From a virus: a stretch of 16,150 nucleotides of DNA. The stretch lies in UHGV virus genome UHGV-0095173; one strand, written 5' to 3'. The position numbers and the translations under genes were made by a program. Positions 1,173 to 15,117 of this stretch are shown here, in pieces; the stretch's first letter is position 1, and every line of letters begins with the position of its first letter. Below the pieces are notes generated by a model. That model worked only from the letters and a program-made list of their open reading frames with translations, made no database searches and was not told the origin of the DNA.

Positions 1173-1348
1173 GCTGCCACCTCCTGAATACGAGTAATAC
1201 GAACGTGCTTATAACCGCCTTTATTCGCCAGTAGTTGCGCAGTCGATTTAGCTGTTTCTGGACTGGTGCTAGTCATGGTGTAGTGAATGCCGACGGTGTT
1301 ACCGCGCTTGTTAACAGCGTATCCGTCGATCTGGAAGGTTTTACGCAT
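1169..1348 (-). CDS. hypothetical small protein (59 aa)
   Basis: Not in the ORF track. Hand translation: MRKTFQIDGYAVNKRGNTVGIHYTMTSTSPETAKSTAQLLANKGGYKHVRITRIQEVAA. ATG at 1348-1346 lies just downstream of the recombinase-like stop (1341-1343); its stop overlaps the next start (ATGA). Confidence 0.45.
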   Translation of the reverse strand: MRKTFQIDGYAVNKRGNTVGIHYTMTSTSPETAKSTAQLLANKGGYKHVRITRIQEVAA

Positions 1349-2219
1349 TTCCGACCTCCATTGCTAAACGGGACTGGATAGCTGCCGCTTTACTGCCTAA
1401 TTGCAGGTAAGTACGAGTTATCGCAGGGTTGCTATGACCCAGCATTTCAGAGGCCACTAATAGGCCCTGTTCGCCACCTGCGGACATGAGGTTAAAGGCG
1501 GCTATTTTGCGGCTTGAGTAGGCGCTCAGGCGCAATTTAGCGTTAATGAAACGGGTAAACCACGCCATGACGCCATGAAGTTTGCGCCAGATGGTTTGGC
1601 GAGTAACGCTACCTTCCAGACGTTGACAACGGTTACTTTCGATTTGAGAGCGGGAAAATACCAGGTCGTCCTCCACCAGATTCCGATCCTGACGGTCACG
1701 CAGCCGCTTGATAATGCCGGGGGGTAACTGTTTGGTGTCGTGCTTGACGTCAGCCTTAGCCACCAGCCCGAACACAATCGCCTGTTCTTCGTCGTTCATA
1801 TCGGCGGCCAGTTCATCACAGCCGATACTATCCCACTTCATGTAGGCGATATGGTCAGCGGCGAGCCGCGCGGCGTCCTTGCGCTGCTGGCGCACAATTT
1901 CAATACCTTTGCGGGTTGCCCGCGCTTCTGCGGCTTTGGTCTGTTTGGAAACGATAATTGTCGCCTGTCCAGTTTCCCAATTGATGCAGGAATAGCGCAG
2001 GTTGCAAACGTCGCTGGTACGCCAGCCGGTTACGGTCGCAATATCCCACCAGAGCAACACCCAATCGGGCTGTGTCTGCTGGATGCGCTCGCGTAGCTTG
2101 CGCTGCTCGTCACGGTCATAGACAGGGGTCATGGTGCGACTGCCCTTTGTGCTCGCCGCTTTAACGACATTGCCGCGCAGCTCGCGGGCTTTGGCTGTCA
2201 GAGTCTGGAGGTTAAACAT
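1341..2219 (-). CDS. tyrosine recombinase-fold protein (phage integrase family, catalytic domain, about 292 aa)
   Basis: C-terminal LGHSNPAITRTYL matches the tyrosine-recombinase box II signature (His and catalytic Tyr). Box I-like TGWRTSDVCNLRY. The usual HxxR appears as SSRK. Start placed at ATG 2219 (MFNLQ...) because GGAGGTG sits 4 nt upstream; the track's longer ORF begins at a TTG at 2312. Confidence 0.65.
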   Translation of the reverse strand: MFNLQTLTAKARELRGNVVKAASTKGSRTMTPVYDRDEQRKLRERIQQTQPDWVLLWWDIATVTGWRTSDVCNLRYSCINWETGQATIIVSKQTKAAEARATRKGIEIVRQQRKDAARLAADHIAYMKWDSIGCDELAADMNDEEQAIVFGLVAKADVKHDTKQLPPGIIKRLRDRQDRNLVEDDLVFSRSQIESNRCQRLEGSVTRQTIWRKLHGVMAWFTRFINAKLRLSAYSSRKIAAFNLMSAGGEQGLLVASEMLGHSNPAITRTYLQLGSKAAAIQSRLAMEVGNA

Positions 2220-2400
2220 GACGCACCTCCGGCACTGGCAGACGTGCGGCCAGAGACAAAATAAAGTGCGGCGCAAGGATGCGGCGGGCTTCGCGTTCGG
2301 TCGCAGCCTCAACGGACAGACGGCAAGGTTTGGCTTTTTTATCGTGGCGATTCAGCGCGAGAAAGCGCCAGGTGAATTTTGAGTGTGCGGATCTAGCCAT
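2212..2400 (-). CDS. hypothetical small protein (62 aa), first gene of the operon
   Basis: ORF track entry. AGGAG about 9 nt upstream of ATG 2400. Its stop overlaps the recombinase-like start (ATGTTTAA). Function unknown. Confidence 0.45.
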   Translation of the reverse strand: MARSAHSKFTWRFLALNRHDKKAKPCRLSVEAATEREARRILAPHFILSLAARLPVPEVRHV

Positions 2401-2720
2401 TTTTAGCGGCTCCTAGAACATATTGAAGGAGTCTCGCCAGATGCTGCTAAACATGGGTGGCGAGACGTGACGGGGTTAGCAGACTGGCGTTCTAGGAAAC
2501 CAGCAGGCGTTAAGCCTCCCCACCACGCCCCGCCATAAATCGGGGGTATGGTTGGTTTTCGGGCGTAAAAATACCGCTATACGGAAATCAGCGGCTACCC
2601 GCTAGAACGTTCAGGCTGCTAAACCCGGCACCCGTTTTGTGAGGTGCAAAATAATCATAACCACACTACCCCGTTAAGCGCAAGGGAAATATCCCCTGCG
2701 CCCACAATGCAAACTTGTGA

Positions 2721-3791
2721 TTAGTACCCGCGAGAAGCGTAAACTCGTGCCATGCCAGCCCAATGAGAGAAAAGAATTTCCCACTTAATTGGGTTGTAGG
2801 TAATACTTCCATCGACTGCGGCAGCATTCCATGCCCGATCAGAAATAGAGCTATCTTTAGCAGTTTTCCCCCATTCAACAATATCCCTTGCTAAAGCCTG
2901 TACACATGCTCGACTGACTACCTTTTCGTCAACGTACGCCCCAACATCAGAGCATGACTCCATACTCATGTTCAGGCTATTTTTAAGGGACTCCAGCCCG
3001 GCCACTGACATAAAGCGACGACCATTAGCGTATGCAACACCGTCATTCCTGATAGTGAACTTAACAGTGTGGAATGCGTCAACAATCATCCGCTGCTCTG
3101 GCGTCGGGTTCTGCCATAGCACAAGGTTAATCTCTCTCTCAGAAGCTATTGATTCTGCTTTCTCACGCTTAACTCGTGCATCCCGTTCTGCCTGGTATTG
3201 TTTTTGATTTTCATCATGAGCCTTTTGGTAACTAGAGGCTAATGCGTCTCTGTTTTTGGCAAATGCTGCAATGCTATTTTTGAAATCGCTTCTGCTAACC
3301 TTGTTTAACCCCATACTCCAGCGGTCATTTTCGTAATCATCATAAATGGCATCAACTTTTGCCGGATTACTCAGCACAGTCGCCAGATTAACCGGAATTT
3401 TAGCCATCTCGTCACTGATTCTCGCTACATGTTCGAAAGTCGATATAGAGCCAACTTCATGACTCCCATACTCATGATAAGCGGCATAAAAAATTGGAAT
3501 AGATTGAGGTTTTTCGTTCACTGACTTAATGATGCTTTTTTCATCACATGACTGTTCACCCCATTTGAAAACACTTTTCCCACCATTTTTGTATGTGTTG
3601 CAATCATCAATACCCAAACGAACCAGCGCATCCCATCCGGGCCGTTTCTTGTAATCCTCGCTCTTGACAACATGCATTGTGGTTAGGGCTTTCGCAGGAT
3701 CTAACTTGCCAGCGGTACAAGACACGATAGGAAAGGCCAGAGAAGCGCAGGCTGCTATCCTGAAAAGGCTCGTCAATCTTTCTTTTTTCAT
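2721..3791 (-). CDS. predicted lipoprotein (356 aa), cargo gene of unknown function
   Basis: N-terminus MKKERLTSLFRIAACASLAFPIVSC has a basic n-region, hydrophobic core and lipobox-like IVSC followed by T. Central charged, coiled-coil-like stretch (YQKAHDENQKQYQAERDARVKREKAES). Looks AT-richer than flanking phage genes by eye. No family recognised. Confidence 0.7.
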   Translation of the reverse strand: MKKERLTSLFRIAACASLAFPIVSCTAGKLDPAKALTTMHVVKSEDYKKRPGWDALVRLGIDDCNTYKNGGKSVFKWGEQSCDEKSIIKSVNEKPQSIPIFYAAYHEYGSHEVGSISTFEHVARISDEMAKIPVNLATVLSNPAKVDAIYDDYENDRWSMGLNKVSRSDFKNSIAAFAKNRDALASSYQKAHDENQKQYQAERDARVKREKAESIASEREINLVLWQNPTPEQRMIVDAFHTVKFTIRNDGVAYANGRRFMSVAGLESLKNSLNMSMESCSDVGAYVDEKVVSRACVQALARDIVEWGKTAKDSSISDRAWNAAAVDGSITYNPIKWEILFSHWAGMARVYASRGY

Positions 3792-3843
3792 CGTCCTAAT
3801 GCTCTTTCAAACCAAGAATGTAGGACATAGTAAATTGTGGTTA

Positions 3844-4170
3844 ATGGCAAGTCGATATAAAGGCCGGGTTATTGGCTTCGGTGCCAATATCATTTCTCCG
3901 AAATTTCATAACGCCTGTAATCGCTCGTTTCCCCATCTTGGGGACATTTCAAAACTGCGAATCAAAGTGCGAATGGAACTGCGAATTCGCAAAGAGAGAG
4001 CGCCGCTCAAAGCAGGCCGGATAAGGCTTCGCGGACATATTGCGAATGCGAATCCACCAGAAACGAAACGCGAATCACCCATAAACAAAACCGATACGCA
4101 GGGAGCGTACTGCCCGTATTCAATCGGCCGAAAAGTCAGCCGATTAAAATCATGCCCGGCTATCCCCTGA
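3844..4170 (+). pseudogene. terS-like relic: diverged inverted copy of the 5' part of the prophage small-terminase gene (possibly an intact 108-codon ORF)
   Basis: An 18-mer caccagaaacgaaacgcg at 4055-4072 is identical to the reverse complement of terS 11811-11828. TGCGAAT repeats at 3956-4075 mirror those at 11904-11958. The frame from ATG 3844 gives MASRYKGRVIGFGANIISPKFHNACNRSFPHLGDISKLRIK..., resembling TerS MAKPDWGELQQRFLSEHAKTGISPKEWCEAQGLNYSTAKRYIKIA. The repeat block is read in a different frame from terS and I found no convincing RBS. Confidence 0.3.
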
Positions 4171-4630
4171 AATTTCAGGAGATCGAGAGCCACCAGCAGA
4201 GAACCGTTCATGCCATCGGTAACTTGCAGCCCGAAGCTCAAATCTGAGCGTTGACCGCCAGCCAGAAGAAACCATTTTAAATCCCGCGCCTTCTCTTTGG
4301 ATGAACAGGGTTACTCCCCGTAATGCTGTGAACTGCCACGATGATTCGGGGTTGTGTTGCGCTGGCCTTTGAGTCCCGCACAAACACTGACCCACAAAAT
4401 TTTTGTAGGTGACTGGCCCTCTTGATGAGGTGCTGTTTTGCGTAACCCTTAATGAGTTGTGCAAAGGCTCAACCCTTTAAAAGGGTTGCCTAACCACCGG
4501 CGATAGTAATAACCGCCAACCTATGAACACTATGAACACCTTTGAGCATTTTTCTATAAACATTCCACTACTGCCCTATTTGATGCCTTTCTCTGGCTGG
4601 CCTGTGTAAGTTACCGTTGCTGGGAACTGA

Positions 4631-4668
4631 CAATAAAAAAGGCTTGCCCCTCTCAGGTAACAAGCCTT
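4631..4668 (-). terminator. intrinsic terminator downstream of alpA
   Basis: Minus strand: 8-bp stem AAGGCTTG / CAAGCCTT with a 14-nt loop followed by TTTTTATTG, about 20 nt past the alpA stop. Confidence 0.5.
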
Positions 4669-4685
4669 GTCTATCGCTCTGGATC

Positions 4686-4898
4686 TCACTCACTACAGAT
4701 TCCGCGCTTTTGGCTCTGTCTTCCGATCCACGCCTCCACCTCATCGCGATACCAGCAATTGCGGCCGCCAACTTTGAAGGGCATCGGAAAGCCGTTCCCC
4801 TCATCCTTCAGAAATTCATAGAACGCAGAATCAGAACGGTAGCGTAGACGGGCTTTAACTTCGACTTTGAGCAAAATATCACTGTTAGATATGGACAT
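4686..4898 (-). CDS. alpA: AlpA-family transcriptional regulator / excisionase-like protein (70 aa)
   Basis: GFPMPFKVGGRNCWYRDEVEAWI matches the AlpA signature (FP-P-K-GGR-W-EVE-WI). GAGG RBS 5 nt upstream of ATG 4898. Sits next to a P4-type integrase. Confidence 0.85.
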   Translation of the reverse strand: MSISNSDILLKVEVKARLRYRSDSAFYEFLKDEGNGFPMPFKVGGRNCWYRDEVEAWIGRQSQKRGICSE

Positions 4899-5040: not shown

Positions 5041-6270
5041 TTACACAACCAGCCTCAAGCCCTTATCGCCGCTGGTCTCCAGTATTTCGCCACACTCTGC
5101 GGCCTCGATAAAGTCCCCCCACCATTGCATTAAAACCCGGCGTTTTTCCAGATAGTCGCTACGGTTATAAACATTTCGAATCGCATCGGCGCTTTTGTGA
5201 GCGAGTGCAGCCTCAATCACATCAGGGTTGAACCCCTCGTCATTTAAAACTGTAGATGCCAACGCCCTGAACCCATGAGGAACAATCAGCCCTTTAAACG
5301 ACGTTTTGTGTATCCCGGCCTGAGTCGCACAGCGTGAGATCGGCTTATTTTCTTTTCGCCATGAGGGGAAAACATAATCGCAGCGCTTCCACTTTTCGGC
5401 CTCTTTAAGCACGTTTATAGCCTGGCTCGATAATGGGACTACGTGGGGGCGCTTTCCTTTCATCCGGCTTGCAGGGATTTGCCAGATTGAGTTATCAAAA
5501 TCAATCTCATTCCAGAGAGCGCCGCCAGCCTCCGAAGGCCGGACCATCGTAATGATCTGGAATAATAATGCCAGCTTTGATGGCTCCCATAAGCTCAACT
5601 CGTTCCATGCGCTTAAAAATTCGGGCAACCGCTCTTTCTGTAAAGTCGCTCTTGGCTCGTTTTTTTCAGCCGGGAATGCTTTACCAATTTTCGATAGCGG
5701 GTTGTGCTCAATAACCCCAATGTTTACCGCATAATCCATTATGGCGTTGATGGTAATAACCATTTTCGTAAGCGTTGATGGCCTTTCCCTGAAAGGTTTA
5801 AAAGCCTGAATAGTATCGGCTGCGTTTATTTTATGTACCGTGGTATGCCTAAAAATCGTGGAAAGATGCTTCAACGTCACATTGTGCGATTCAAGCGTGT
5901 TGCTTCTCGCACCTTCTTTAATCTTGATTTTTAGCCATTCATCGGCAACGGCCTGAAATGACTGCGCGTACATTTTACGCTGTTCATTCCTGGCATCTTT
6001 TTTGACTTCGTTCGGATCTATCCCTCGCGCTACCATACGGCGCAGTTTCGAACGTTCCTCCCTCGCTTCGGACAAAGTAAACTCCGGGTATCGTCCAATA
6101 GTATAGGTTTGTCTCTTCTTCGTTACCGGGTGTACATACCGAAAACGCCATGACTTACCGCCCCGGCTTGTGATGTAAAGCAACAAACCGAAACCATCGT
6201 GCAAACTGAAATCCTTGCCCTGTGCCTTCGCGCTTTTCACTTCGACGCTAGTTAGTGGCCTAACAATCAT
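5041..6270 (-). CDS. int: tyrosine-type site-specific integrase, P4-like (409 aa)
   Basis: N-terminal arm-binding-type domain (GKSWRFRYVHPVTKKRQTYTIGRYPEFTLSEAREE). C-terminal catalytic region with HGFRALAST and downstream Tyr (RNVYNRSDY). GAGG RBS 7 nt upstream of ATG 6270. Confidence 0.95.
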   Translation of the reverse strand: MIVRPLTSVEVKSAKAQGKDFSLHDGFGLLLYITSRGGKSWRFRYVHPVTKKRQTYTIGRYPEFTLSEAREERSKLRRMVARGIDPNEVKKDARNEQRKMYAQSFQAVADEWLKIKIKEGARSNTLESHNVTLKHLSTIFRHTTVHKINAADTIQAFKPFRERPSTLTKMVITINAIMDYAVNIGVIEHNPLSKIGKAFPAEKNEPRATLQKERLPEFLSAWNELSLWEPSKLALLFQIITMVRPSEAGGALWNEIDFDNSIWQIPASRMKGKRPHVVPLSSQAINVLKEAEKWKRCDYVFPSWRKENKPISRCATQAGIHKTSFKGLIVPHGFRALASTVLNDEGFNPDVIEAALAHKSADAIRNVYNRSDYLEKRRVLMQWWGDFIEAAECGEILETSGDKGLRLVV

Positions 6271-6484
6271 TCAACACCTCTCTGGCTACCATGTAATGCA
6301 AACGGCGCATGATTCTCTTTCTAGTCCCTCATGTACCGAATCAAAGCGAAATCCGGCGAATAAATCCGCACATGTTCGGAGTGTCATTTTTATGGTTCAG
6401 GCCAGTAACGCCGTATGATTCCGAACGATAACGCACTGATTAATAGATATTAGTTGCATAAGGTACAGATATGCAGTCATTGGA

Positions 6485-7916: not shown

Positions 7917-8690
7917 TCAGGCGAGATAGGGATGAGGTGTCGGGAATACGATTTCTTTGTAGCAACGGCAGTTAGGTAACTCCCCGGCGTGACCGGTCAT
8001 GCCGTCAAGCGTTGGAGGTCGGCCCCATTCGACAAACTTCCCTTCCATCTCTCGATGAGAATGCCGGACGTCGCCATCTTCGGCTGTACGCCAGATATAA
8101 CCATTCGAGCCGATTGACAGCGCACGCGCCTGATCCAGTGCACCGGTTGCGCGCCCAAGCTCAGTCCGGGCGATAAGGTTCGCTCGTGAGCGTGACACGT
8201 CACCGGAAGCAGCTATCTCTTTCGCGAATGGCTCAGCGCGGCCACCAGTCACAACAGCCTCGATGGCTTTGTTCTGAATGTCATACACCCGATCGGCAGC
8301 CTCAAGAGGCAGCGATTTGATGTACTTAATTTGCTCGGCGACGATGGATTTCATCACCTGGCCTACCGGGGCGCGGTCAACCATGTTGCGCAGCTCTGAG
8401 CTGATGTTCCGGCTGTGCTGACGCCACTGCTTTTCATTCTGGCGCGCTATGTCTGCGGTGAAGTTCTCAGCTACCTTAGTCGCCCAGGGAGTGATGATTT
8501 CGCTGTAGCGCTCCAGCGCATCCATTATTTCGGTGACACTATCGTTTGAACCATCGTAGCGACCATTTACGATATCCCCGACCGCCCGCGCTATCTGCCG
8601 TAGACTCGTTCGATATCGGATCTCCGCCTGGCGGCTCTGGCGGTTTGTCGCCAAGTTCGCCGATGCCTGGCGGCGCTTCGTCTTCGGCAT
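7917..8690 (-). CDS. phage head morphogenesis protein (Mu gpF / SPP1 gp7 family-like, 257 aa)
   Basis: Position directly after the portal gene and overall sequence character. GAGGA 8 nt upstream of ATG 8690. Overlaps the portal 3' end by about 150 bp in another frame, so the true start may be internal. Confidence 0.8.
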   Translation of the reverse strand: MPKTKRRQASANLATNRQSRQAEIRYRTSLRQIARAVGDIVNGRYDGSNDSVTEIMDALERYSEIITPWATKVAENFTADIARQNEKQWRQHSRNISSELRNMVDRAPVGQVMKSIVAEQIKYIKSLPLEAADRVYDIQNKAIEAVVTGGRAEPFAKEIAASGDVSRSRANLIARTELGRATGALDQARALSIGSNGYIWRTAEDGDVRHSHREMEGKFVEWGRPPTLDGMTGHAGELPNCRCYKEIVFPTPHPYLA

Positions 8691-10008
8691 TCTCGATATC
8701 CTCGTCGGTAATGGATGCCCCGATGCCGGTGACGTCAGAGTTTTCGCGCAGGTCGGTCATCGCCGCCTTACGCGTCATCAATCCGTCGCCCAGCGCGGTA
8801 CTGATCGCGTTGGTGGTGTTTACGGCCACCGTTGATCGGTCAACGTCTGACATTTGCCATAGCGGGTTAAACTCAAACGTGAAATCGTCCGGCAGCGGCT
8901 TTCCGAGTTCCGAGCGGTGCATAATGTCCAGTATCCGGCGCATCGGCAGTCGTAAGCGGCGCTCCTGCAATGAGCTCACCCGGTCGTAATAGTTGGCGAG
9001 GTCTGCATCACCAGTAGAGAAGCCTTTCGGGGATTGACCGAACAGGCGTACCAGCGGGATACCAACGGCACCGCTGATCTGCTCAGCAAACTGCGAAAGA
9101 ATGTCATCCAGACCACTAAAGCTGTACTGGTGGGTTTCGAACTTATCCCGCGAGTCCATGAGCGTCATACCTTCATTGCTCTGGAACTGGCGGATCAGGT
9201 CGATGTTCTTCAGCAACGCTTCGAACGCCGGGCCTCCAAGCGCGATAAGCTCGCGCAACTTCTCCACGCTATAGGTACGCAGATGTGCTTTGTAGACCAG
9301 CTGCGCCGCGCCGACAGTGGCGCTGTCGAACGCAGTAAGCCGATCCCAGATACGCTCTACAACCGACATTCCCCATTCGTTTTCGGTCATCTTCTGCTGG
9401 AATGGCAGCGTGACGCCATCAAAGCGGATCAGGCGGCTGTGATGGATGCGCCAGGCCGGAATGCCCGTTGCGGTGGTCACCACGTCGTAAAACTCAGGCT
9501 TGCCGAGGTCCGGCCCCATCTCTTTAATGCGGCGTGTCAGCACCGGGTTAATCATCCAGCGGTCGAGCGGGAGAATGCCCTTAAACTTGCCCTCGCCAAT
9601 GGTTTCGAGTCGCAGCGGGGTCATTGGTGCTTGCCCCTCGATCATGATGAAGCCGACCGCGCCGCCGTAGAGGCGCGACCATTTCAGCACGTCGTTCAGC
9701 GCATCCCAGATCTGCAACTCATCCAGTTGCGCTTCGAGGGTGCCACGGTCTTTGGCGTCAATCTCCGAAGTGATGCGAATGCCCTTTCGGGTCATATCGT
9801 CCGGGATAGCGTCGACCGCTTCACCGATAACCCACGAACCGCGATATGACCATTCCACCAGCATGCGGTTGCGGCTGGTGAAGTTCGCCCGGTAGGTCGA
9901 TGCAGAGTGCTGATTAGGCGTCTGCATCCCCACGCGGGCGACAAAGTTCTCATAGCCATCAGCGGTGGCCTGCGCCGTTCGCTGAGAGGCTTTCTTGTTT
10001 CGTGCCAT
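8539..10008 (-). CDS. phage portal protein (about 489 aa)
   Basis: Size and position directly after the large terminase; acidic, disordered C-terminal tail. Start set to ATG 10008-10006, which overlaps the terL stop (ATGA); the track's longer ORF begins at a TTG at 10035. Confidence 0.9.
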   Translation of the reverse strand: MARNKKASQRTAQATADGYENFVARVGMQTPNQHSASTYRANFTSRNRMLVEWSYRGSWVIGEAVDAIPDDMTRKGIRITSEIDAKDRGTLEAQLDELQIWDALNDVLKWSRLYGGAVGFIMIEGQAPMTPLRLETIGEGKFKGILPLDRWMINPVLTRRIKEMGPDLGKPEFYDVVTTATGIPAWRIHHSRLIRFDGVTLPFQQKMTENEWGMSVVERIWDRLTAFDSATVGAAQLVYKAHLRTYSVEKLRELIALGGPAFEALLKNIDLIRQFQSNEGMTLMDSRDKFETHQYSFSGLDDILSQFAEQISGAVGIPLVRLFGQSPKGFSTGDADLANYYDRVSSLQERRLRLPMRRILDIMHRSELGKPLPDDFTFEFNPLWQMSDVDRSTVAVNTTNAISTALGDGLMTRKAAMTDLRENSDVTGIGASITDEDIENAEDEAPPGIGELGDKPPEPPGGDPISNESTADSAGGRGYRKWSLRWFKR

Positions 10009-11450
10009 CAGGCCTGTCTCCCTAGCAGCTCCCAAATATCCATTGTTGTATCGGTCGGCGCGAACGCCATTATGAAAGCGTCGGCAATGTTAGGTGAGGG
10101 GATATCGCGCTTAGCCAAATCTTTCTTGCTTTCAACCATAACCCTACCGTTACGATCAAAGTCTCGGTGCGGGGTCGTCAGCTCAAGCTTTAGTTTCTCC
10201 AGGTGCGGGCACGATGAATCGATACTTATCAACTCATCAACAGGATATTCCTCTCCATTTTTCACCGCGTTGAACGTATTACGAAAGCGATCAGCTACCA
10301 GCCACCATGCCTGGGCTTTCAGATTGGCAAAGAAGTCTTTATTCGGAATGCCGTTATATTCAGAATCTGGCTCGTTCACACCAGCGCCAGCATTGAAGCG
10401 TTGATAATTAACTGGTCGTGAATAAGGATTTTCACGTCGTCTGTCTTCGTTAATTTCCGAGAATTTAGCACCAGCAGAAGCGCCAACACCAATGGAGTCA
10501 TAAACGATATCAGCACTTCTCTCTGTGGCTGCCTGATATGCCCGCTGGCAGCTTTTAAGAAGCTCGTCTTCTTTTGCCTTCCATTCATCAGCCCAATACA
10601 CAACGGAGCCATGACGATAAACATTGGAGCACTTATCCGCACCGCTATCGGCAACGTCGAAGCCTATTCGCTTTCGTCCGTTTGGCTCAAAACCAAGCAC
10701 CTTATGGGCATCTATTGCAGCCTCAATCCACGAAAGTTTAATAATTGCCGCGTCATCATCAGATTCGGGAACCCCCATATAAACGTGGTCAAACCCCTCC
10801 GGATCACGACGCTTTGCAGCCGAGATAACCTTAAGCATGGTGTCTGAGAGGAATGGGTTTTCGTCGTAATTGATTTTTCGCACCAACGTATCTTCTGGTG
10901 GATCAACAACGAAATTACGCCATACAAAGTCAGTCACCAGACCAGGGTTAAAAATAAACCAGCATTCAGATCCGCTTTTACGAATGGTTGGTTCCAGTAT
11001 CTTCCACTGGTATTCCGTTAGTGCATGGGCTTCTTCAAGCCACAAAACGCTGATACCTTCCAGGGATTTAATTTCTTCGATATTGCGCCATAAACCGTAA
11101 AACACGAATTCTGAGCCAGTGACCCGGTTGATAATTTTATTATTCAGAATTCGGAAGCGATGCCGCAGCCCAAACCGTTCAATCTGTATTTTGAGCAGGG
11201 TATAAACCGACTCTTCGATTTTGTTCTGAATTTTACGTGCGCAACAGAAACGCAGGTTGTATTTATTTGCCAGAAAGACAGCAAACCCAGCAGCATCCCA
11301 TGACTTTGACGATGAGCGCCCACCAAAAAGTACTTTATTTCGAGCCTGTGTCGTCCAGAAGTTCCTTAGAGCCGGATTCAGGGTCGGTTTGGATGTCAGA
11401 GTAGAAGTCATTAAGGTCACGATCTCCATTACCGTCATCAACGCCAGCAT
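10008..11450 (-). CDS. terminase large subunit
   Basis: Long ORF directly after terS. N-terminal ATPase-type region (KVLFGGRSSSKSWDAAGFAV is Walker A-like; LWLEEAH is Walker B-like). Start uncertain: the track ORF opens with GTG at 11453, first ATG is 11450, and other candidates are 11438, 11429 and 11411; all overlap the terS 3' end. Confidence 0.9.
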   Translation of the reverse strand: MLALMTVMEIVTLMTSTLTSKPTLNPALRNFWTTQARNKVLFGGRSSSKSWDAAGFAVFLANKYNLRFCCARKIQNKIEESVYTLLKIQIERFGLRHRFRILNNKIINRVTGSEFVFYGLWRNIEEIKSLEGISVLWLEEAHALTEYQWKILEPTIRKSGSECWFIFNPGLVTDFVWRNFVVDPPEDTLVRKINYDENPFLSDTMLKVISAAKRRDPEGFDHVYMGVPESDDDAAIIKLSWIEAAIDAHKVLGFEPNGRKRIGFDVADSGADKCSNVYRHGSVVYWADEWKAKEDELLKSCQRAYQAATERSADIVYDSIGVGASAGAKFSEINEDRRRENPYSRPVNYQRFNAGAGVNEPDSEYNGIPNKDFFANLKAQAWWLVADRFRNTFNAVKNGEEYPVDELISIDSSCPHLEKLKLELTTPHRDFDRNGRVMVESKKDLAKRDIPSPNIADAFIMAFAPTDTTMDIWELLGRQA

Positions 11451-12090
11451 CACGACGAAGGCGATCCGCTTCCAGAGACACTTTGTCAGTGGAGGCGAGC
11501 CGATGCTCTATAGATGCCTTTGTGAATTCCAGCGACTCAATGCGGGCCGTGTTACGGTGCATGGCTTTTTGCGCAGATGAAATTAGCTCGTGAAGATTAT
11601 TGGCGGTATCGCCATCAGCTATTTCAAGCTCAGTCTGCCAGCGGCCAATATTTTCAGCAGCGGTAAGGTTCGCCGCACGCAACCAGAAAAGCTCATCATC
11701 AAGAGTGAGCGCCTGAGCATCCTCGGTAATGGCATCAGATAGAAGCATTCGGCGTCCATAGCCACCATGCTTCAATGCGTTCTGATTTCCGGGTCTGGAA
11801 TTATAATGAGCGCGTTTCGTTTCTGGTGAGTTTGATGGTTTTGCGACTTCGCAGTTATCCACTAAGCCCGCTGGTGGCTTACTCTTTGCCACTTTCTCCT
11901 TTTGCGAATTCGCAGTTTTATTCGCACTTTTCTTTTGCGAATTCGCACTACCATTCGCAATTTTGATATAGCGCTTTGCAGTCGAGTAATTCAGTCCCTG
12001 CGCTTCGCACCATTCTTTGGGGGAAATGCCGGTTTTGGCATGTTCGGACAGGAACCGTTGCTGAAGCTCGCCCCAGTCCGGCTTTGCCAT
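11335..12090 (-). CDS. terminase small subunit (251 aa)
   Basis: N-terminal HTH-like domain; motif RPGNQNALKHGGY typical of Gram-negative phage TerS; immediately upstream of terL. AGAGGAAA RBS. Contains the ANSQK-encoding GCGAATTCGC repeat cluster. Confidence 0.85.
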   Translation of the reverse strand: MAKPDWGELQQRFLSEHAKTGISPKEWCEAQGLNYSTAKRYIKIANGSANSQKKSANKTANSQKEKVAKSKPPAGLVDNCEVAKPSNSPETKRAHYNSRPGNQNALKHGGYGRRMLLSDAITEDAQALTLDDELFWLRAANLTAAENIGRWQTELEIADGDTANNLHELISSAQKAMHRNTARIESLEFTKASIEHRLASTDKVSLEADRLRRDAGVDDGNGDRDLNDFYSDIQTDPESGSKELLDDTGSK

Positions 12091-14586: not shown

Positions 14587-15117
14587 ATGACAAAAAGGAA
14601 GTACCGATTTTATCATGCGGACAGGGGTAACTTGCTGAGCCCTGACATGACAATAATCCCTGTAAATGGCCTCTCTTCATTTGGAAAGCATTATCTCTCC
14701 CGGATAAATAGTGGAAATATGAGCGACGTGCTAGACGAAAATGTACAAAGAGAGATGCTGTATGAAAATGTGCGGATGGAAAATTTCCCATCCCGCCCAA
14801 GCCGATTCTCGTGCCTTTTTGGTGCGAACTCCATTCCTGAAGCGGAAAGCTTCGCCAGAAAGATAATCCCGCAACCGACCACCCCAATTAATATTTATGA
14901 AGTTTTTACTGAAAATTTTGTGATTCTCGATATGAATTGGATGGATTACATAACAACAGATTTCGGTAGTAGGGTTGAATATGCCCGGCAGTACTGGTAT
15001 TCATCAATTACCCAGCACGCCCCACTTACCGGCGATAGGATGATACCAACCCTGGAAGTCCTGCTGCCGCTTCCCGTGGAAGTAGGCAAGCAAGTCAGTA
15101 CTGTCGCTTTTGATTAA
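14587..15117 (+). CDS. hypothetical protein (176 aa), accessory (moron-like) gene antisense to the late operon
   Basis: ORF track entry. AAGGA RBS 6 nt upstream of ATG. Only sizeable plus-strand gene in the window. Looks AT-rich by eye. Sits between the late promoter and the holin. No family recognised. Confidence 0.6.
   Translation: MTKRKYRFYHADRGNLLSPDMTIIPVNGLSSFGKHYLSRINSGNMSDVLDENVQREMLYENVRMENFPSRPSRFSCLFGANSIPEAESFARKIIPQPTTPINIYEVFTENFVILDMNWMDYITTDFGSRVEYARQYWYSSITQHAPLTGDRMIPTLEVLLPLPVEVGKQVSTVAFD

What the first reader, a model, noticed from the sequence alone, without database searches (positions are those of the whole stretch)
2721..3791. Orphan 356-aa lipoprotein as cargo of the integrase/AlpA element
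Single monocistronic gene flanked by about 320 bp and about 850 bp non-coding regions, with a lipobox signal peptide, a central coiled-coil-like charged segment, paired cysteines (CNTYKNGGKSVFKWGEQSC) and apparently lower GC than its neighbours. Phage- and island-borne lipoproteins often act in superinfection exclusion or receptor masking (established for Llp and Cor families), but this one is far larger and I do not recognise it.
Basis: partly seen in the sequence, partly recalled or inferred. Interest (0 to 1): 0.65.

Follow-up and report, generated by a model that had tools for sequence, protein, structure and literature searches.

The report
Phage-satellite envelope lipoprotein, function unknown
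This is a real, conserved gene for a lipoprotein with no recognisable fold, probably anchored to the outer membrane; a phage satellite embedded in its helper prophage carries it as a self-contained cassette, its domains also occur in a variable slot in the tail genes of that phage type, and it most likely blocks incoming phages, though that is untested.

Summary
ORF 2721-3791(-) encodes a 356-aa lipoprotein under purifying selection (Ka/Ks 0.16). The lipobox Cys25 and two Cys pairs (64/82, 280/296) are invariant. GC is 44.7% against 49-56% nearby.

The element is a published kind, a helper-embedded PICI satellite. Here it is inserted in the 5' end of the cement gene of a SEN34/E217-like prophage. 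The gene is a 1.24-kb cassette (2667-3908) with hairpins on both sides. The flanks are not empty: a C4 immunity RNA lies below and an ATTCGCA repeat cluster lies above.

The protein is modular. Its N- and C-domains recur, alone or recombined with phrog_3443, as exported proteins in one fixed slot of the helper-type phages, between baseplate hub and spike. The satellite probably captured it from there.

Best reading (0.4, inferred): an envelope-acting exclusion or receptor-masking lipoprotein. It would be a new variant of a known kind. Interest is moderate.

The parts
2721..3791 (-). Lipoprotein CDS, 356 aa (stop codon included)
   Evidence: The ORF is listed. It has 41 homologue clusters and Ka/Ks 0.16. 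It is annotated as a hypothetical protein, WP_049041001.1, in E. coli ABWA45, where the gene is 100% identical.
3717..3791 (-). Signal peptide with lipobox (residues 1-25, IVS|C25). The +2 residue is Thr, which predicts sorting to the outer membrane.
   Evidence: Lipobox pattern test and family-wide conservation. The sorting prediction follows the +2 Asp retention rule, which is established knowledge and was not tested here.
3144..3698 (-). N-terminal helical domain (residues 32-216). It contains the invariant C64/C82 pair and the YAAYHEYG motif, and ends in the long charged helix 181-216.
   Evidence: AF2 model and alignment. The same domain is fused to a different C-terminus (phrog_3443) in prophage tail-slot lipoproteins: 40% identity over 163 aa, E 5e-37.
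2724..3143 (-). C-terminal alpha/beta domain (residues 217-356) with invariant C280, Y286 and C296. It occurs on its own in secreted phage proteins.
2667..3908 (-). The 1,242-bp cargo cassette: gene plus 117 bp upstream and 54 bp downstream. It is absent from the otherwise collinear island of E. coli EC2001.
   Evidence: blastn breakpoints are 2200-2666 at 98% identity and 3909-4209 at 89% identity, flanking a 42-bp filler in L021.
2658..2723 (-). Terminator-like hairpin starting at the stop codon, followed by UUAUUUUG
   Evidence: RNA fold dG -33 kcal/mol, z -3.97, with 0 of 200 shuffles as stable.
2453..2540 (-). C4-type antisense (immunity) RNA of the satellite, upstream of the Icd-like gene
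   Evidence: Rfam RF01695, 75 bits against a gathering score of 45, E 2e-13, full length. It is also present in the sister islands L001, L002 and L003.
2212..2400 (-). Icd-like small protein gene
   Evidence: NCBIfam NF033153, 79.7 bits; phrog_1743.
1341..2312 (-). Second tyrosine recombinase of the island
   Evidence: Pfam Phage_integrase. It is 92-98% conserved among sister islands whose main integrase is only 56-63% identical.
3956..4053 (.). Cluster of six ATTCGCA motifs, inside the conserved small ORF 3906-4241(-). It mirrors a cluster in the phage terminase-small-like gene at 11903-11959. It belongs to the island, not to the cassette.
   Evidence: 13 motifs in the window against 4.0 expected, and 0 of 200 shuffles reach 13. 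The shared core is visible. The cluster is present in the EC2001 island, which lacks the lipoprotein.
4630..4677 (-). Terminator-like hairpin plus U6 after alpA
   Evidence: RNA fold dG -22.8 kcal/mol, z -2.07.
4686..4898 (-). AlpA-like regulator/excisionase gene
   Evidence: Weak Pfam Phage_AlpA hit, E 0.0065. The homologue is annotated as an AlpA family regulator in ET791.
5041..6270 (-). Satellite integrase (P4-type, with arm-binding domain)
   Evidence: Pfam Arm-DNA-bind_3, Phage_int_M and Phage_integrase.
6462..6475 (.). att core GGTACAGATATGCA at the junction between island and phage. The island separates the first ~7 codons of the phage cement gene from the rest of that gene.
   Evidence: Comparison with uninterrupted phage SEN34 shows a 20-bp overlap of the two homology blocks. 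Phage homology starts at 6462.

Best explanation
Shown:
- The gene encodes an exported lipoprotein with a conserved lipobox.
- It carries two conserved Cys pairs that probably form disulfides in the periplasm.
- It has two modules: an N-terminal helical domain ending in a ~36-residue charged helix, and a compact C-terminal domain.
- It sits as a self-contained cassette between hairpins in the variable zone of a helper-embedded PICI satellite.
- Both domains occur as exported proteins in one fixed slot of the helper-type temperate myoviruses, between the baseplate hub and spike genes.

Inferred:
- The protein is anchored in the inner leaflet of the outer membrane. The lipid anchor, N-domain and long helix position the C-terminal domain, which is the working binding module.
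- That module binds an envelope component. The target would be either the phage receptor, reached from the periplasmic side, or the incoming tail tip (spike or transglycosylase-bearing tape measure).
- Binding blocks adsorption or genome delivery by phages of the helper's own kind. It may also spare released particles from being lost on cell debris.
- The satellite captured the gene from a helper-type phage. It benefits because its host, and the helper prophage it sits in, are shielded from competitors.
For: Export and anchoring:
- The lipobox and Cys25 are invariant, the +2 residue is never Asp, and four further Cys are invariant.

Binding rather than catalysis:
- Across the wide family only C280, Y286 and C296 are invariant. 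No catalytic-type residues are conserved.

The C-domain works alone:
- It occurs as a secreted protein by itself in Hafnia phage yong1 gp67 and in proteins of ~200-250 aa.
- Joined to a lipobox and coiled coil, it forms the 240-aa lipoprotein P0094, seen on more than 1,000 Salmonella contigs.

Tail-slot position:
- The hub-to-spike slot holds N+C, C only, coiled coil+C or N+phrog_3443 in 15 loci.
- That position is analogous to llp next to the T5 receptor-binding gene. T5 Llp is a small lipoprotein of the outer-membrane inner leaflet that binds FhuA (abstracts of PMC9586334 and 10.64898/2026.03.26.714494).

Accessory status:
- It is a 1.24-kb insertion with lower GC and its own hairpins. It is rare, in 16 of 5,426 E. 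coli genomes.
- Sister islands carry TA modules in the same zone.

Capture from helpers:
- The islands that carry it are embedded in, or related to islands embedded in, the same phage type.
- Capture of helper late genes by PICIs is documented (PMC10111431).
Against: - There is no experimental evidence.
- No sequence or fold similarity exists to Llp, Cor, Ltp or any PADLOC defence protein.
- No consensus-grade promoter lies upstream, so expression in the lysogen is unproven.
- In chromosomal PICIs and in the phage tail slot the gene lies in late-type operons. That suits a role during or after induction more than standing immunity.
- A satellite normally gains from helper infection, so excluding helper-type phages is not obviously favourable.
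- The target molecule is unknown.
Confidence: 0.4

Rival explanations
1. It is a lysogenic-conversion or host-fitness factor unrelated to phage exclusion. The envelope lipoprotein would change a host property such as serum or lysozyme resistance, adhesion or envelope stress tolerance. Lambda Bor and plasmid TraT work this way.
For: - It has moron-like cassette architecture and lower GC.
- It is an exported lipoprotein.
- Neighbouring slots carry virulence or fitness cargo such as SopE in the Salmonella prophages.
Against: - The domains sit at one fixed position inside the baseplate gene block across genera with very different lifestyles: Salmonella, Photorhabdus, Xenorhabdus, Hafnia and E. coli. 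That argues for a phage-centred role.
- No Bor or TraT family hit was found.
Confidence: 0.2
2. It serves the satellite's or phage's own cycle at the envelope. It could tune lysis or release, for example by acting on spanins or the peptidoglycan-outer membrane link. It could instead act against the helper by interfering with its release.
For: - In chromosomal PICIs the gene follows the late-zone genes, directly after the HEAGH peptidase-like gene and before a terminase-small-like gene.
- In phages it is co-oriented within the late tail operon.
- An outer-membrane lipoprotein with a long helix loosely recalls spanin components.
Against: - The helper already encodes holin, endolysin and Rz/Rz1-type genes in the window.
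- The protein is far larger than o-spanins, is not proline-rich and has no C-terminal transmembrane segment (sequence).
- The slot is variable, and in some phages it holds an unrelated secreted protein or TA genes. An essential lysis role is therefore unlikely.
Confidence: 0.15
3. It is one half of a two-gene system with the small cytoplasmic HEAGH metallopeptidase-like protein. Such a system might be a sensor/effector or toxin/antidote pair acting across the inner membrane.
For: - The peptidase-like gene lies immediately upstream, with gaps from one base to about 80 bp, in Serratia, Dickeya, Yersinia and E. coli yicC-site islands.
- Nearly every island that carries the lipoprotein also carries a peptidase-like gene somewhere.
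Against: - In the window-type islands the two genes are about 8 kb apart with the replication module between them.
- The phage tail-slot homologues have no such neighbour.
- The island in EC2001 lacks both genes. In ECONIH5 the peptidase-like gene appears split (two tblastn pieces, 294 and 459 bp annotated ORFs) while the lipoprotein is intact.
- The peptidase match to Pfam M41 is below threshold and limited to the HEXXH region.
Confidence: 0.1
4. It is not a functional gene, only a chance ORF or a decaying remnant.
For: There is no family annotation anywhere.
Against: - Ka/Ks is 0.16.
- Full-length conservation runs from E. coli to Photorhabdus, with 41 invariant columns.
- The structure models are confident.
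Confidence: 0.01

Closest known systems
T5 Llp (superinfection-exclusion lipoprotein that binds FhuA)
   Same: - Both are phage-borne lipoproteins. Llp sits in the inner leaflet of the outer membrane, and that location is predicted here.
- The gene lies among tail and host-recognition genes in the phages that carry the family.
- The proposed role is to block the carrier's own kind of phage and protect progeny.
   Different: - Llp is small and this protein is 356 aa with two domains.
- There is no sequence or fold similarity.
- The target is unknown and the function is untested.
- Here the gene is carried by a satellite.
Cor family (phi80, N15, HK022 and T1-like phages)
   Same: Both are small exported or lipoprotein morons near tail genes of temperate phages that exclude phages using the same receptor. 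This description of Cor is established knowledge recalled from memory.
   Different: There is no homology by Pfam or PHROGs. The size and architecture are very different, and the receptor is unknown.
Ltp of Streptococcus thermophilus phage TP-J34
   Same: [quoted passage not shown] From memory, it has a modular build of lipid anchor plus repeated domain and acts on the incoming tape measure.
   Different: Ltp works in a Gram-positive host. There is no Pfam Ltp hit and the fold is different.
T4 Spackle (periplasmic inhibitor of the tail lysozyme gp5)
   Same: Both are periplasmic, mostly helical phage proteins. Spackle stops genome delivery by neutralising the cell-wall-degrading part of an incoming tail (recalled from memory). 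The helper-type phages here carry a tape measure with a lytic transglycosylase domain, which would be a comparable target.
   Different: There is no detectable similarity. Spackle is soluble and small. The parallel is mechanistic speculation only.
Helper-embedded PICIs (Tommasini, Mageeney and Williams 2023, PMC10111431)
   Same: - The element has integrase and AlpA, a variable zone with a C4-type immunity RNA, a primase and a late zone.
[quoted passage not shown]
   Different: - The helper is a SEN34/E217-like myovirus, not lambda-like.
- The cement-gene site is not named in the text I could read.
- The paper does not mention this lipoprotein.
phrog_3443 (secreted 115-aa phage protein, function unknown)
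   Same: It occupies the same hub-to-spike slot. In some prophages it is fused to the same N-domain in place of this protein's C-domain.
   Different: Its sequence is unrelated to the C-domain studied here, and it is also uncharacterised.

Membership tests
Bacterial lipoproteins (Lgt/LspA substrates) | N-terminal signal peptide with a positively charged n-region, a hydrophobic core and a lipobox [LVI][ASTVI][GAS]C | tested here: met
   MKKER...LAFPIVS|C25 passes the G+LPP pattern. It fails the PROSITE pattern, and by my reading of the sequence Pro at -4 is the mismatching position. Cys25 is invariant, and nearly all full-length relatives pass one or both patterns.
Bacterial lipoproteins (Lgt/LspA substrates) | Actual lipidation and outer-membrane sorting (no Asp at +2) | not testable with these tools
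   The +2 residue is Thr here and is never Asp in the family. Lipidation itself needs globomycin or palmitate labelling and cell fractionation.
Known superinfection-exclusion lipoproteins (Llp, Cor, Ltp) | Sequence homology to the family | tested here: not met
   There are no hits in Pfam-A, PHROGs v4 or NCBIfam, and none to PDB sequences. I did not check which specific models these libraries hold for Llp or Cor.
Known superinfection-exclusion lipoproteins (Llp, Cor, Ltp) | Structural similarity to a solved member | tested here: not met
Known superinfection-exclusion lipoproteins (Llp, Cor, Ltp) | Blocks adsorption or DNA entry of the cognate phage when expressed | not testable with these tools
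   This needs plaque, adsorption and DNA-entry assays.
Catalogued anti-phage defence systems (PADLOC-DB 2.0) | Match to a defence-protein model | tested here: not met
   The only hit is a chance-level match, E 0.036 and 11.5 bits, to a 2TM effector model.
Phage morons (self-contained accessory cassettes) | Insertion between genes that are adjacent in related genomes | tested here: met
   There is a clean 1,242-bp insertion relative to the EC2001 island.
Phage morons (self-contained accessory cassettes) | Own terminator, and base composition distinct from neighbours | tested here: met
   A hairpin with dG -33 kcal/mol and z -4 follows the stop codon. GC is 44.7% against 49-56% nearby.
Phage morons (self-contained accessory cassettes) | Own promoter | tested here: inconclusive
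   The scan found no promoter at 9 of 12 matches or better on the coding strand. By eye there is only a weak candidate, TCGACT-17-TACTAT, about 35 nt upstream of the ATG (sequence).
Helper-embedded PICI satellites (context of the gene) | Integrase plus AlpA, a variable zone with immunity RNA, a primase and a late zone, all co-oriented | tested here: met
   for the window. for the full islands. The zones are defined in PMC10111431.
Helper-embedded PICI satellites (context of the gene) | [quoted passage not shown] | tested here: met
   The insertion lies in the first ~7 codons of the cement gene, and the core GGTACAG[G/A][A/T]ATGCA is found at both ends.
Helper-embedded PICI satellites (context of the gene) | Integrase belongs to the 11capE clade; induction and mobilisation by the helper | not tested
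   No integrase phylogeny was built. Mobilisation needs experiments.

The most novel reading that the evidence does not exclude
The hub-to-spike slot of SEN34/E217-like temperate myoviruses would be an unrecognised, rapidly shuffling immunity locus. It would be built from three exported modules: the N-domain, the C-domain studied here (a new fold), and phrog_3443. These proteins would neutralise the penetrating tail tip, either the spike or the transglycosylase-bearing tape measure, of incoming phages in the periplasm. Helper-embedded satellites would have captured one version and use it to lock competitors out of the cell they share with their helper.
Probability: 0.2. Interest if true: 0.7.

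Novelty: new variant of a known kind. Interest (0 to 1): 0.45.

Why it matters
If the inference is right, this would be a new structural class of envelope-acting exclusion protein in Enterobacterales. It is much larger than Llp or Cor and is modular.

It would also be a clear case of a satellite borrowing an accessory gene from the phage type it parasitises. That gives a concrete, cheap experiment: express one gene and challenge with phages.

The work also flags a conserved but unannotated slot in a common family of Salmonella and E. coli prophages. One variant of the protein in that slot was seen on more than 1,000 Salmonella contigs.

If the inference is wrong, the gene is still a conserved envelope protein with no known fold that moves between phages and satellites. 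It could then be a lysogenic-conversion factor in pathogens. EHEC O45:H2 and O55:H7 strains carry a 71%-identical (DNA) copy.

Tried and rejected
1. Family assignment. Pfam, PHROGs, NCBIfam and PADLOC gave nothing for the protein. The PDB sequence search gave only coiled-coil chance matches.

2. Fold assignment.
- BFVD gave one unnamed viral protein, H9C1A6, which I could not identify.
- The AFDB library was unavailable.
- The weak DUF1311 and T6SS-immunity resemblances were rejected as noise.

3. Upstream gap as a decayed peptidase-like gene. tblastn of five peptidase-like proteins against the window found nothing.

4. Obligate pairing with the HEAGH peptidase-like gene. I downgraded this because the tail-slot homologues and the window-type islands do not keep the two genes adjacent.

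5. ATTCGCA repeats as part of the lipoprotein cassette. Rejected, because the repeats are also in the EC2001 island, which lacks the gene.

6. Spanin identity. Rejected on size and composition, on the absence of a transmembrane segment, and because lysis genes are already present in the window.

7. Other replicons. There is no copy on plasmids. Among phage isolates the family appears only in Hafnia phage yong1.

8. Literature. Nothing was found for the protein accessions or for PICI lipoproteins in exclusion.

Full report
1. The observation

The window has an ATG-initiated ORF of 356 aa at 2721-3791 on the minus strand. An AGGA Shine-Dalgarno sequence precedes it. The N-terminus, MKKERLTSLFRIAACASLAFPIVS|C25-TAG, has a charged n-region, a hydrophobic core and a lipobox. 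It satisfies the G+LPP lipoprotein pattern. It fails PROSITE PS51257, and by my reading Pro at -4 is the mismatching position.

In an alignment of 36 homologues, Cys25 is invariant. So are C64, C82, C280 and C296. Residues 181-216 are 42% charged and are modelled as a single long helix.

The gaps to the neighbouring genes are 320 bp (2401-2720) and 894 bp (3792-4685). GC is 44.7% (GC3 41.7%). This compares with 56% for the Icd-like and recombinase genes, 47.9% for the integrase, 49.6% for the island part and 51.3% for the phage part.

The gene is under purifying selection. Ka/Ks is 0.16 against the 95%-identical copies in E. coli ET791 and ECONIH5. Synonymous sites are saturated against distant copies, while pN stays at 0.18-0.43.

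2. What lies around the gene

Everything from about 6462 to the right end is the late region of a temperate phage: Q, holin/endolysin/Rz, KilA-N, terminase, portal, head morphogenesis and a DUF2213 head protein. This region is 84-95% identical to Citrobacter phage Omnitron, Salmonella phage SEN34 and Hafnia phage yong1.

Everything to the left belongs to an inserted island. Its genes, in order, are:
- an integrase with an arm-binding domain (5041-6270);
- an AlpA-like gene (4686-4898);
- the lipoprotein;
- a C4-type antisense RNA (2453-2540; Rfam RF01695, 75 bits);
- an Icd-like gene (2212-2400);
- a second tyrosine recombinase (1341-2312);
- several small ORFs.

In E. coli ABWA45, whose copy of the gene is 100% identical, the island continues further, as it does in ET791 and ECONIH5. 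It adds a TOPRIM/DUF927 primase, small genes, a HEAGH metallopeptidase-like gene and, in ET791 and ECONIH5, a DUF2280 terminase-small-like gene. It then meets the phage cement and major-capsid genes.

Comparison with uninterrupted SEN34 places the insertion inside the first ~7 codons of the cement gene. The core GGTACAG[G/A][A/T]ATGCA is duplicated at both ends, and in the window it lies at 6462-6475.

This is the helper-embedded PICI arrangement described by Tommasini, Mageeney and Williams (PMC10111431). [quoted passage not shown] Their paper does not mention the lipoprotein, and the text I could read does not name this site.

3. The gene is a compact cargo cassette, and its flanks are not empty

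The island in E. coli EC2001 is collinear with the window but lacks the gene. Homology runs through 2200-2666 at 98% and resumes at 3909-4209 at 89%, with 42 unrelated bases in between. The cargo is therefore 2667-3908. That is the gene plus 117 bp upstream and 54 bp downstream.

A strong hairpin starts at the stop codon (dG -33 kcal/mol, z -4). A hairpin followed by U6 ends alpA. No consensus-grade sigma-70 promoter was found on the coding strand. By eye there is only a weak candidate.

The upstream gap holds six ATTCGCA motifs at 3956-4053. These match a cluster of six inside the phage's terminase-small-like ORF at 11903-11959. The window has 13 motifs in total against 4 expected. The cluster lies in a small ORF, 3906-4241, that is conserved with an ORF following alpA in EC2001. 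It is present there without the lipoprotein. It therefore belongs to the island, perhaps as a packaging-site mimic, and not to the cassette.

4. The protein family

The word-indexed search found 41 clusters, all in Enterobacterales and all 'hypothetical'. Genera include Escherichia, Salmonella, Klebsiella, Serratia, Pectobacterium, Dickeya, Yersinia, Rahnella and Photorhabdus. A genome scan added Phytobacter, Kosakonia and Enterobacter.

An exhaustive profile search of 1.84 billion representatives found only 47 proteins. Of 5,426 complete E. coli genomes, 16 carry a member. None is on a plasmid.

No family or defence model matches. No PDB sequence matches.

Across the wide family only C280, Y286 and C296 are invariant. 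That pattern fits a disulfide-stapled binding domain better than an enzyme.

5. Modularity and the link to the helper phage's tail genes

The C-domain occurs alone behind a Sec signal. One example is Hafnia phage yong1 gp67. Its annotated start is too far downstream, and the upstream ATG restores a signal peptide. Other examples are secreted proteins of ~200-250 aa that carry a coiled coil.

The C-domain also occurs behind a lipobox and coiled coil in the 240-aa lipoprotein P0094, seen on more than 1,000 Salmonella contigs. hhalign against P0094 gives 98.9% probability and E 1.5e-17.

The N-domain occurs with a different C-terminus, phrog_3443, in lipoproteins of 292-296 aa. Identity to the window protein is 40% over 163 aa, E 5e-37.

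A marker table of 47 loci sorts the contexts into three classes:
- Helper-embedded islands with the order int-alpA-lipoprotein-(icd)-recombinase-primase. There are 15 loci at three different late-gene sites in the same phage type.
- Chromosomal PICIs, several next to yicC. Here the gene directly follows the HEAGH peptidase-like gene.
- Prophages of the SEN34/E217 type. Here the homologue always lies between the baseplate hub (gp41-like) and the spike.

In the helper prophage of ABWA45 that same slot holds phrog_3443 and a Phd/Doc pair. The slot is thus a variable locus for exported proteins and other accessory genes. The satellites that parasitise this phage type carry one version of its contents. 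PICI capture of helper late genes is documented.

6. Mechanism

Shown: the protein has a conserved lipoprotein signal and conserved cysteines, is modular, sits in a self-contained cassette, and shares its domains with tail-slot proteins of helper-type phages.

Inferred: it is anchored in the outer membrane, because the +2 residue is never Asp. The C-domain is the active binding module and the N-domain and helix position it. It acts on the phage receptor or the penetrating tail tip to exclude phages of the helper's kind, or to protect released particles.

The closest functional parallels are T5 Llp and Ltp (PMC9586334, 10.64898/2026.03.26.714494 and PMC3952083). Cor and T4 Spackle, recalled from memory, are further parallels. 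The protein is not a member of any of these families. Homology and fold tests were run and were negative.

I give this reading 0.4. The rivals are:
- a host-fitness factor (0.2);
- a role in lysis or release (0.15);
- a two-gene system with the peptidase-like protein (0.1);
- a non-functional ORF (0.01).

7. Verdict

'Orphan' is not correct, and the exclusion function is still a hypothesis.

The element itself is a known kind. The protein is an uncharacterised family without a known fold. Its tie to one tail-gene slot of the helper-type phages is the main new point. Novelty is 'new variant of a known kind' and interest is 0.45.

Noticed in passing
window 2453-2540 (-): A full-length C4-type antisense (immunity) RNA sits in the 'non-coding' gap below the lipoprotein gene, just upstream of the Icd-like gene. 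About 35 E. coli plasmid records, those listed being ~90-125 kb, match the surrounding window 2443-2628 at about 82% identity.
   Followed up: partly
window 3956-4053 and 11903-11959: Two clusters of six ATTCGCA motifs share a ~30-nt core (TTTGCGAATTCGCAGTTnnATTCGCACTT). One is in the island upstream of the lipoprotein cassette. The other is inside the phage's terminase-small-like ORF (11335-12090). This could be a packaging-site or TerS-binding mimic used by the satellite. The cluster is also present in the EC2001 island, which lacks the lipoprotein.
   Followed up: partly
window 6462-6475; L001 5557-5571 and 17775-17790: The satellite is integrated in the first ~7 codons of the helper's cement (decoration) gene, with an imperfect 14-bp duplicated core. 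PGAP then calls the cement gene from an internal ATG. This site is not named in the readable text of the paper on helper-embedded PICIs.
   Followed up: partly
L011, L033, L035, L041 (after the cement gene; in L011 the capsid gene is cut to 153 aa); L036 (after the spike gene): Sister satellites carrying the same lipoprotein sit at two other late-gene sites of the same phage type. Their integrases are only 56-63% identical to the window's. Their second recombinase is 92-96% identical.
   Followed up: partly
window 1341-2312 (-): The island has a second tyrosine recombinase that overlaps the Icd-like gene end. It is much more conserved among islands than the main integrase. Its role is unknown.
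   Followed up: no
L007 9276-9959, L010 9284-9943, L012 9343-9999, L014 9253-9924, L001 6210-6929: A cytoplasmic protein of ~220 aa with a HEAGH motif lies directly upstream of the lipoprotein in chromosomal PICIs and at the far end of the window-type islands. PGAP names it 'peptidase M41 family', but the Pfam match is below threshold and limited to the motif.
   Followed up: partly
L018 (Hafnia phage yong1) 5827-6306: The start codon of gp67 appears misannotated. An upstream in-frame ATG adds MGWRVNKRTVFLILSLFVPIAVMA, a Sec signal peptide. This makes gp67 a secreted protein consisting of the C-domain alone.
   Followed up: yes
window 3906-4241 (-): A 111-aa ORF with a TTG start is conserved with a 128-aa ORF annotated directly after alpA in E. 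coli EC2001. It contains the ATTCGCA repeats. It could be a remnant or relative of the eta-like gene that follows alpA in P4-type elements, or it could be non-coding.
   Followed up: partly
window about 4167-4442: A 276-bp stretch is present in the window but absent from the otherwise near-identical island in E. coli ABWA45. Two IMG/VR contigs (L028, L029) carry the lipoprotein gene at 100% identity and the same marker-gene order as the window.
   Followed up: no
L026 (ABWA45 helper prophage) 8505-9752; L021 834-1181: The hub-to-spike slot of the helper prophage holds a secreted phrog_3443 protein of 114-115 aa. In ABWA45 it also holds a Phd/Doc toxin-antitoxin pair. This shows that the slot is an accessory-gene hotspot.
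   Followed up: partly
L002 13898-14543; L019 14579-15224: In ET791 and ECONIH5 a TumE-family/DUF6516 gene plus a partner gene lie on the opposite strand between the lipoprotein cassette and alpA. This is a second cargo in the same variable zone.
   Followed up: no
window 14587-15117 (+): A 176-aa ORF lies on the opposite strand in a low-GC stretch (43-45%) between the Q antiterminator and the holin gene. It could be another moron. I did not examine it.
   Followed up: no
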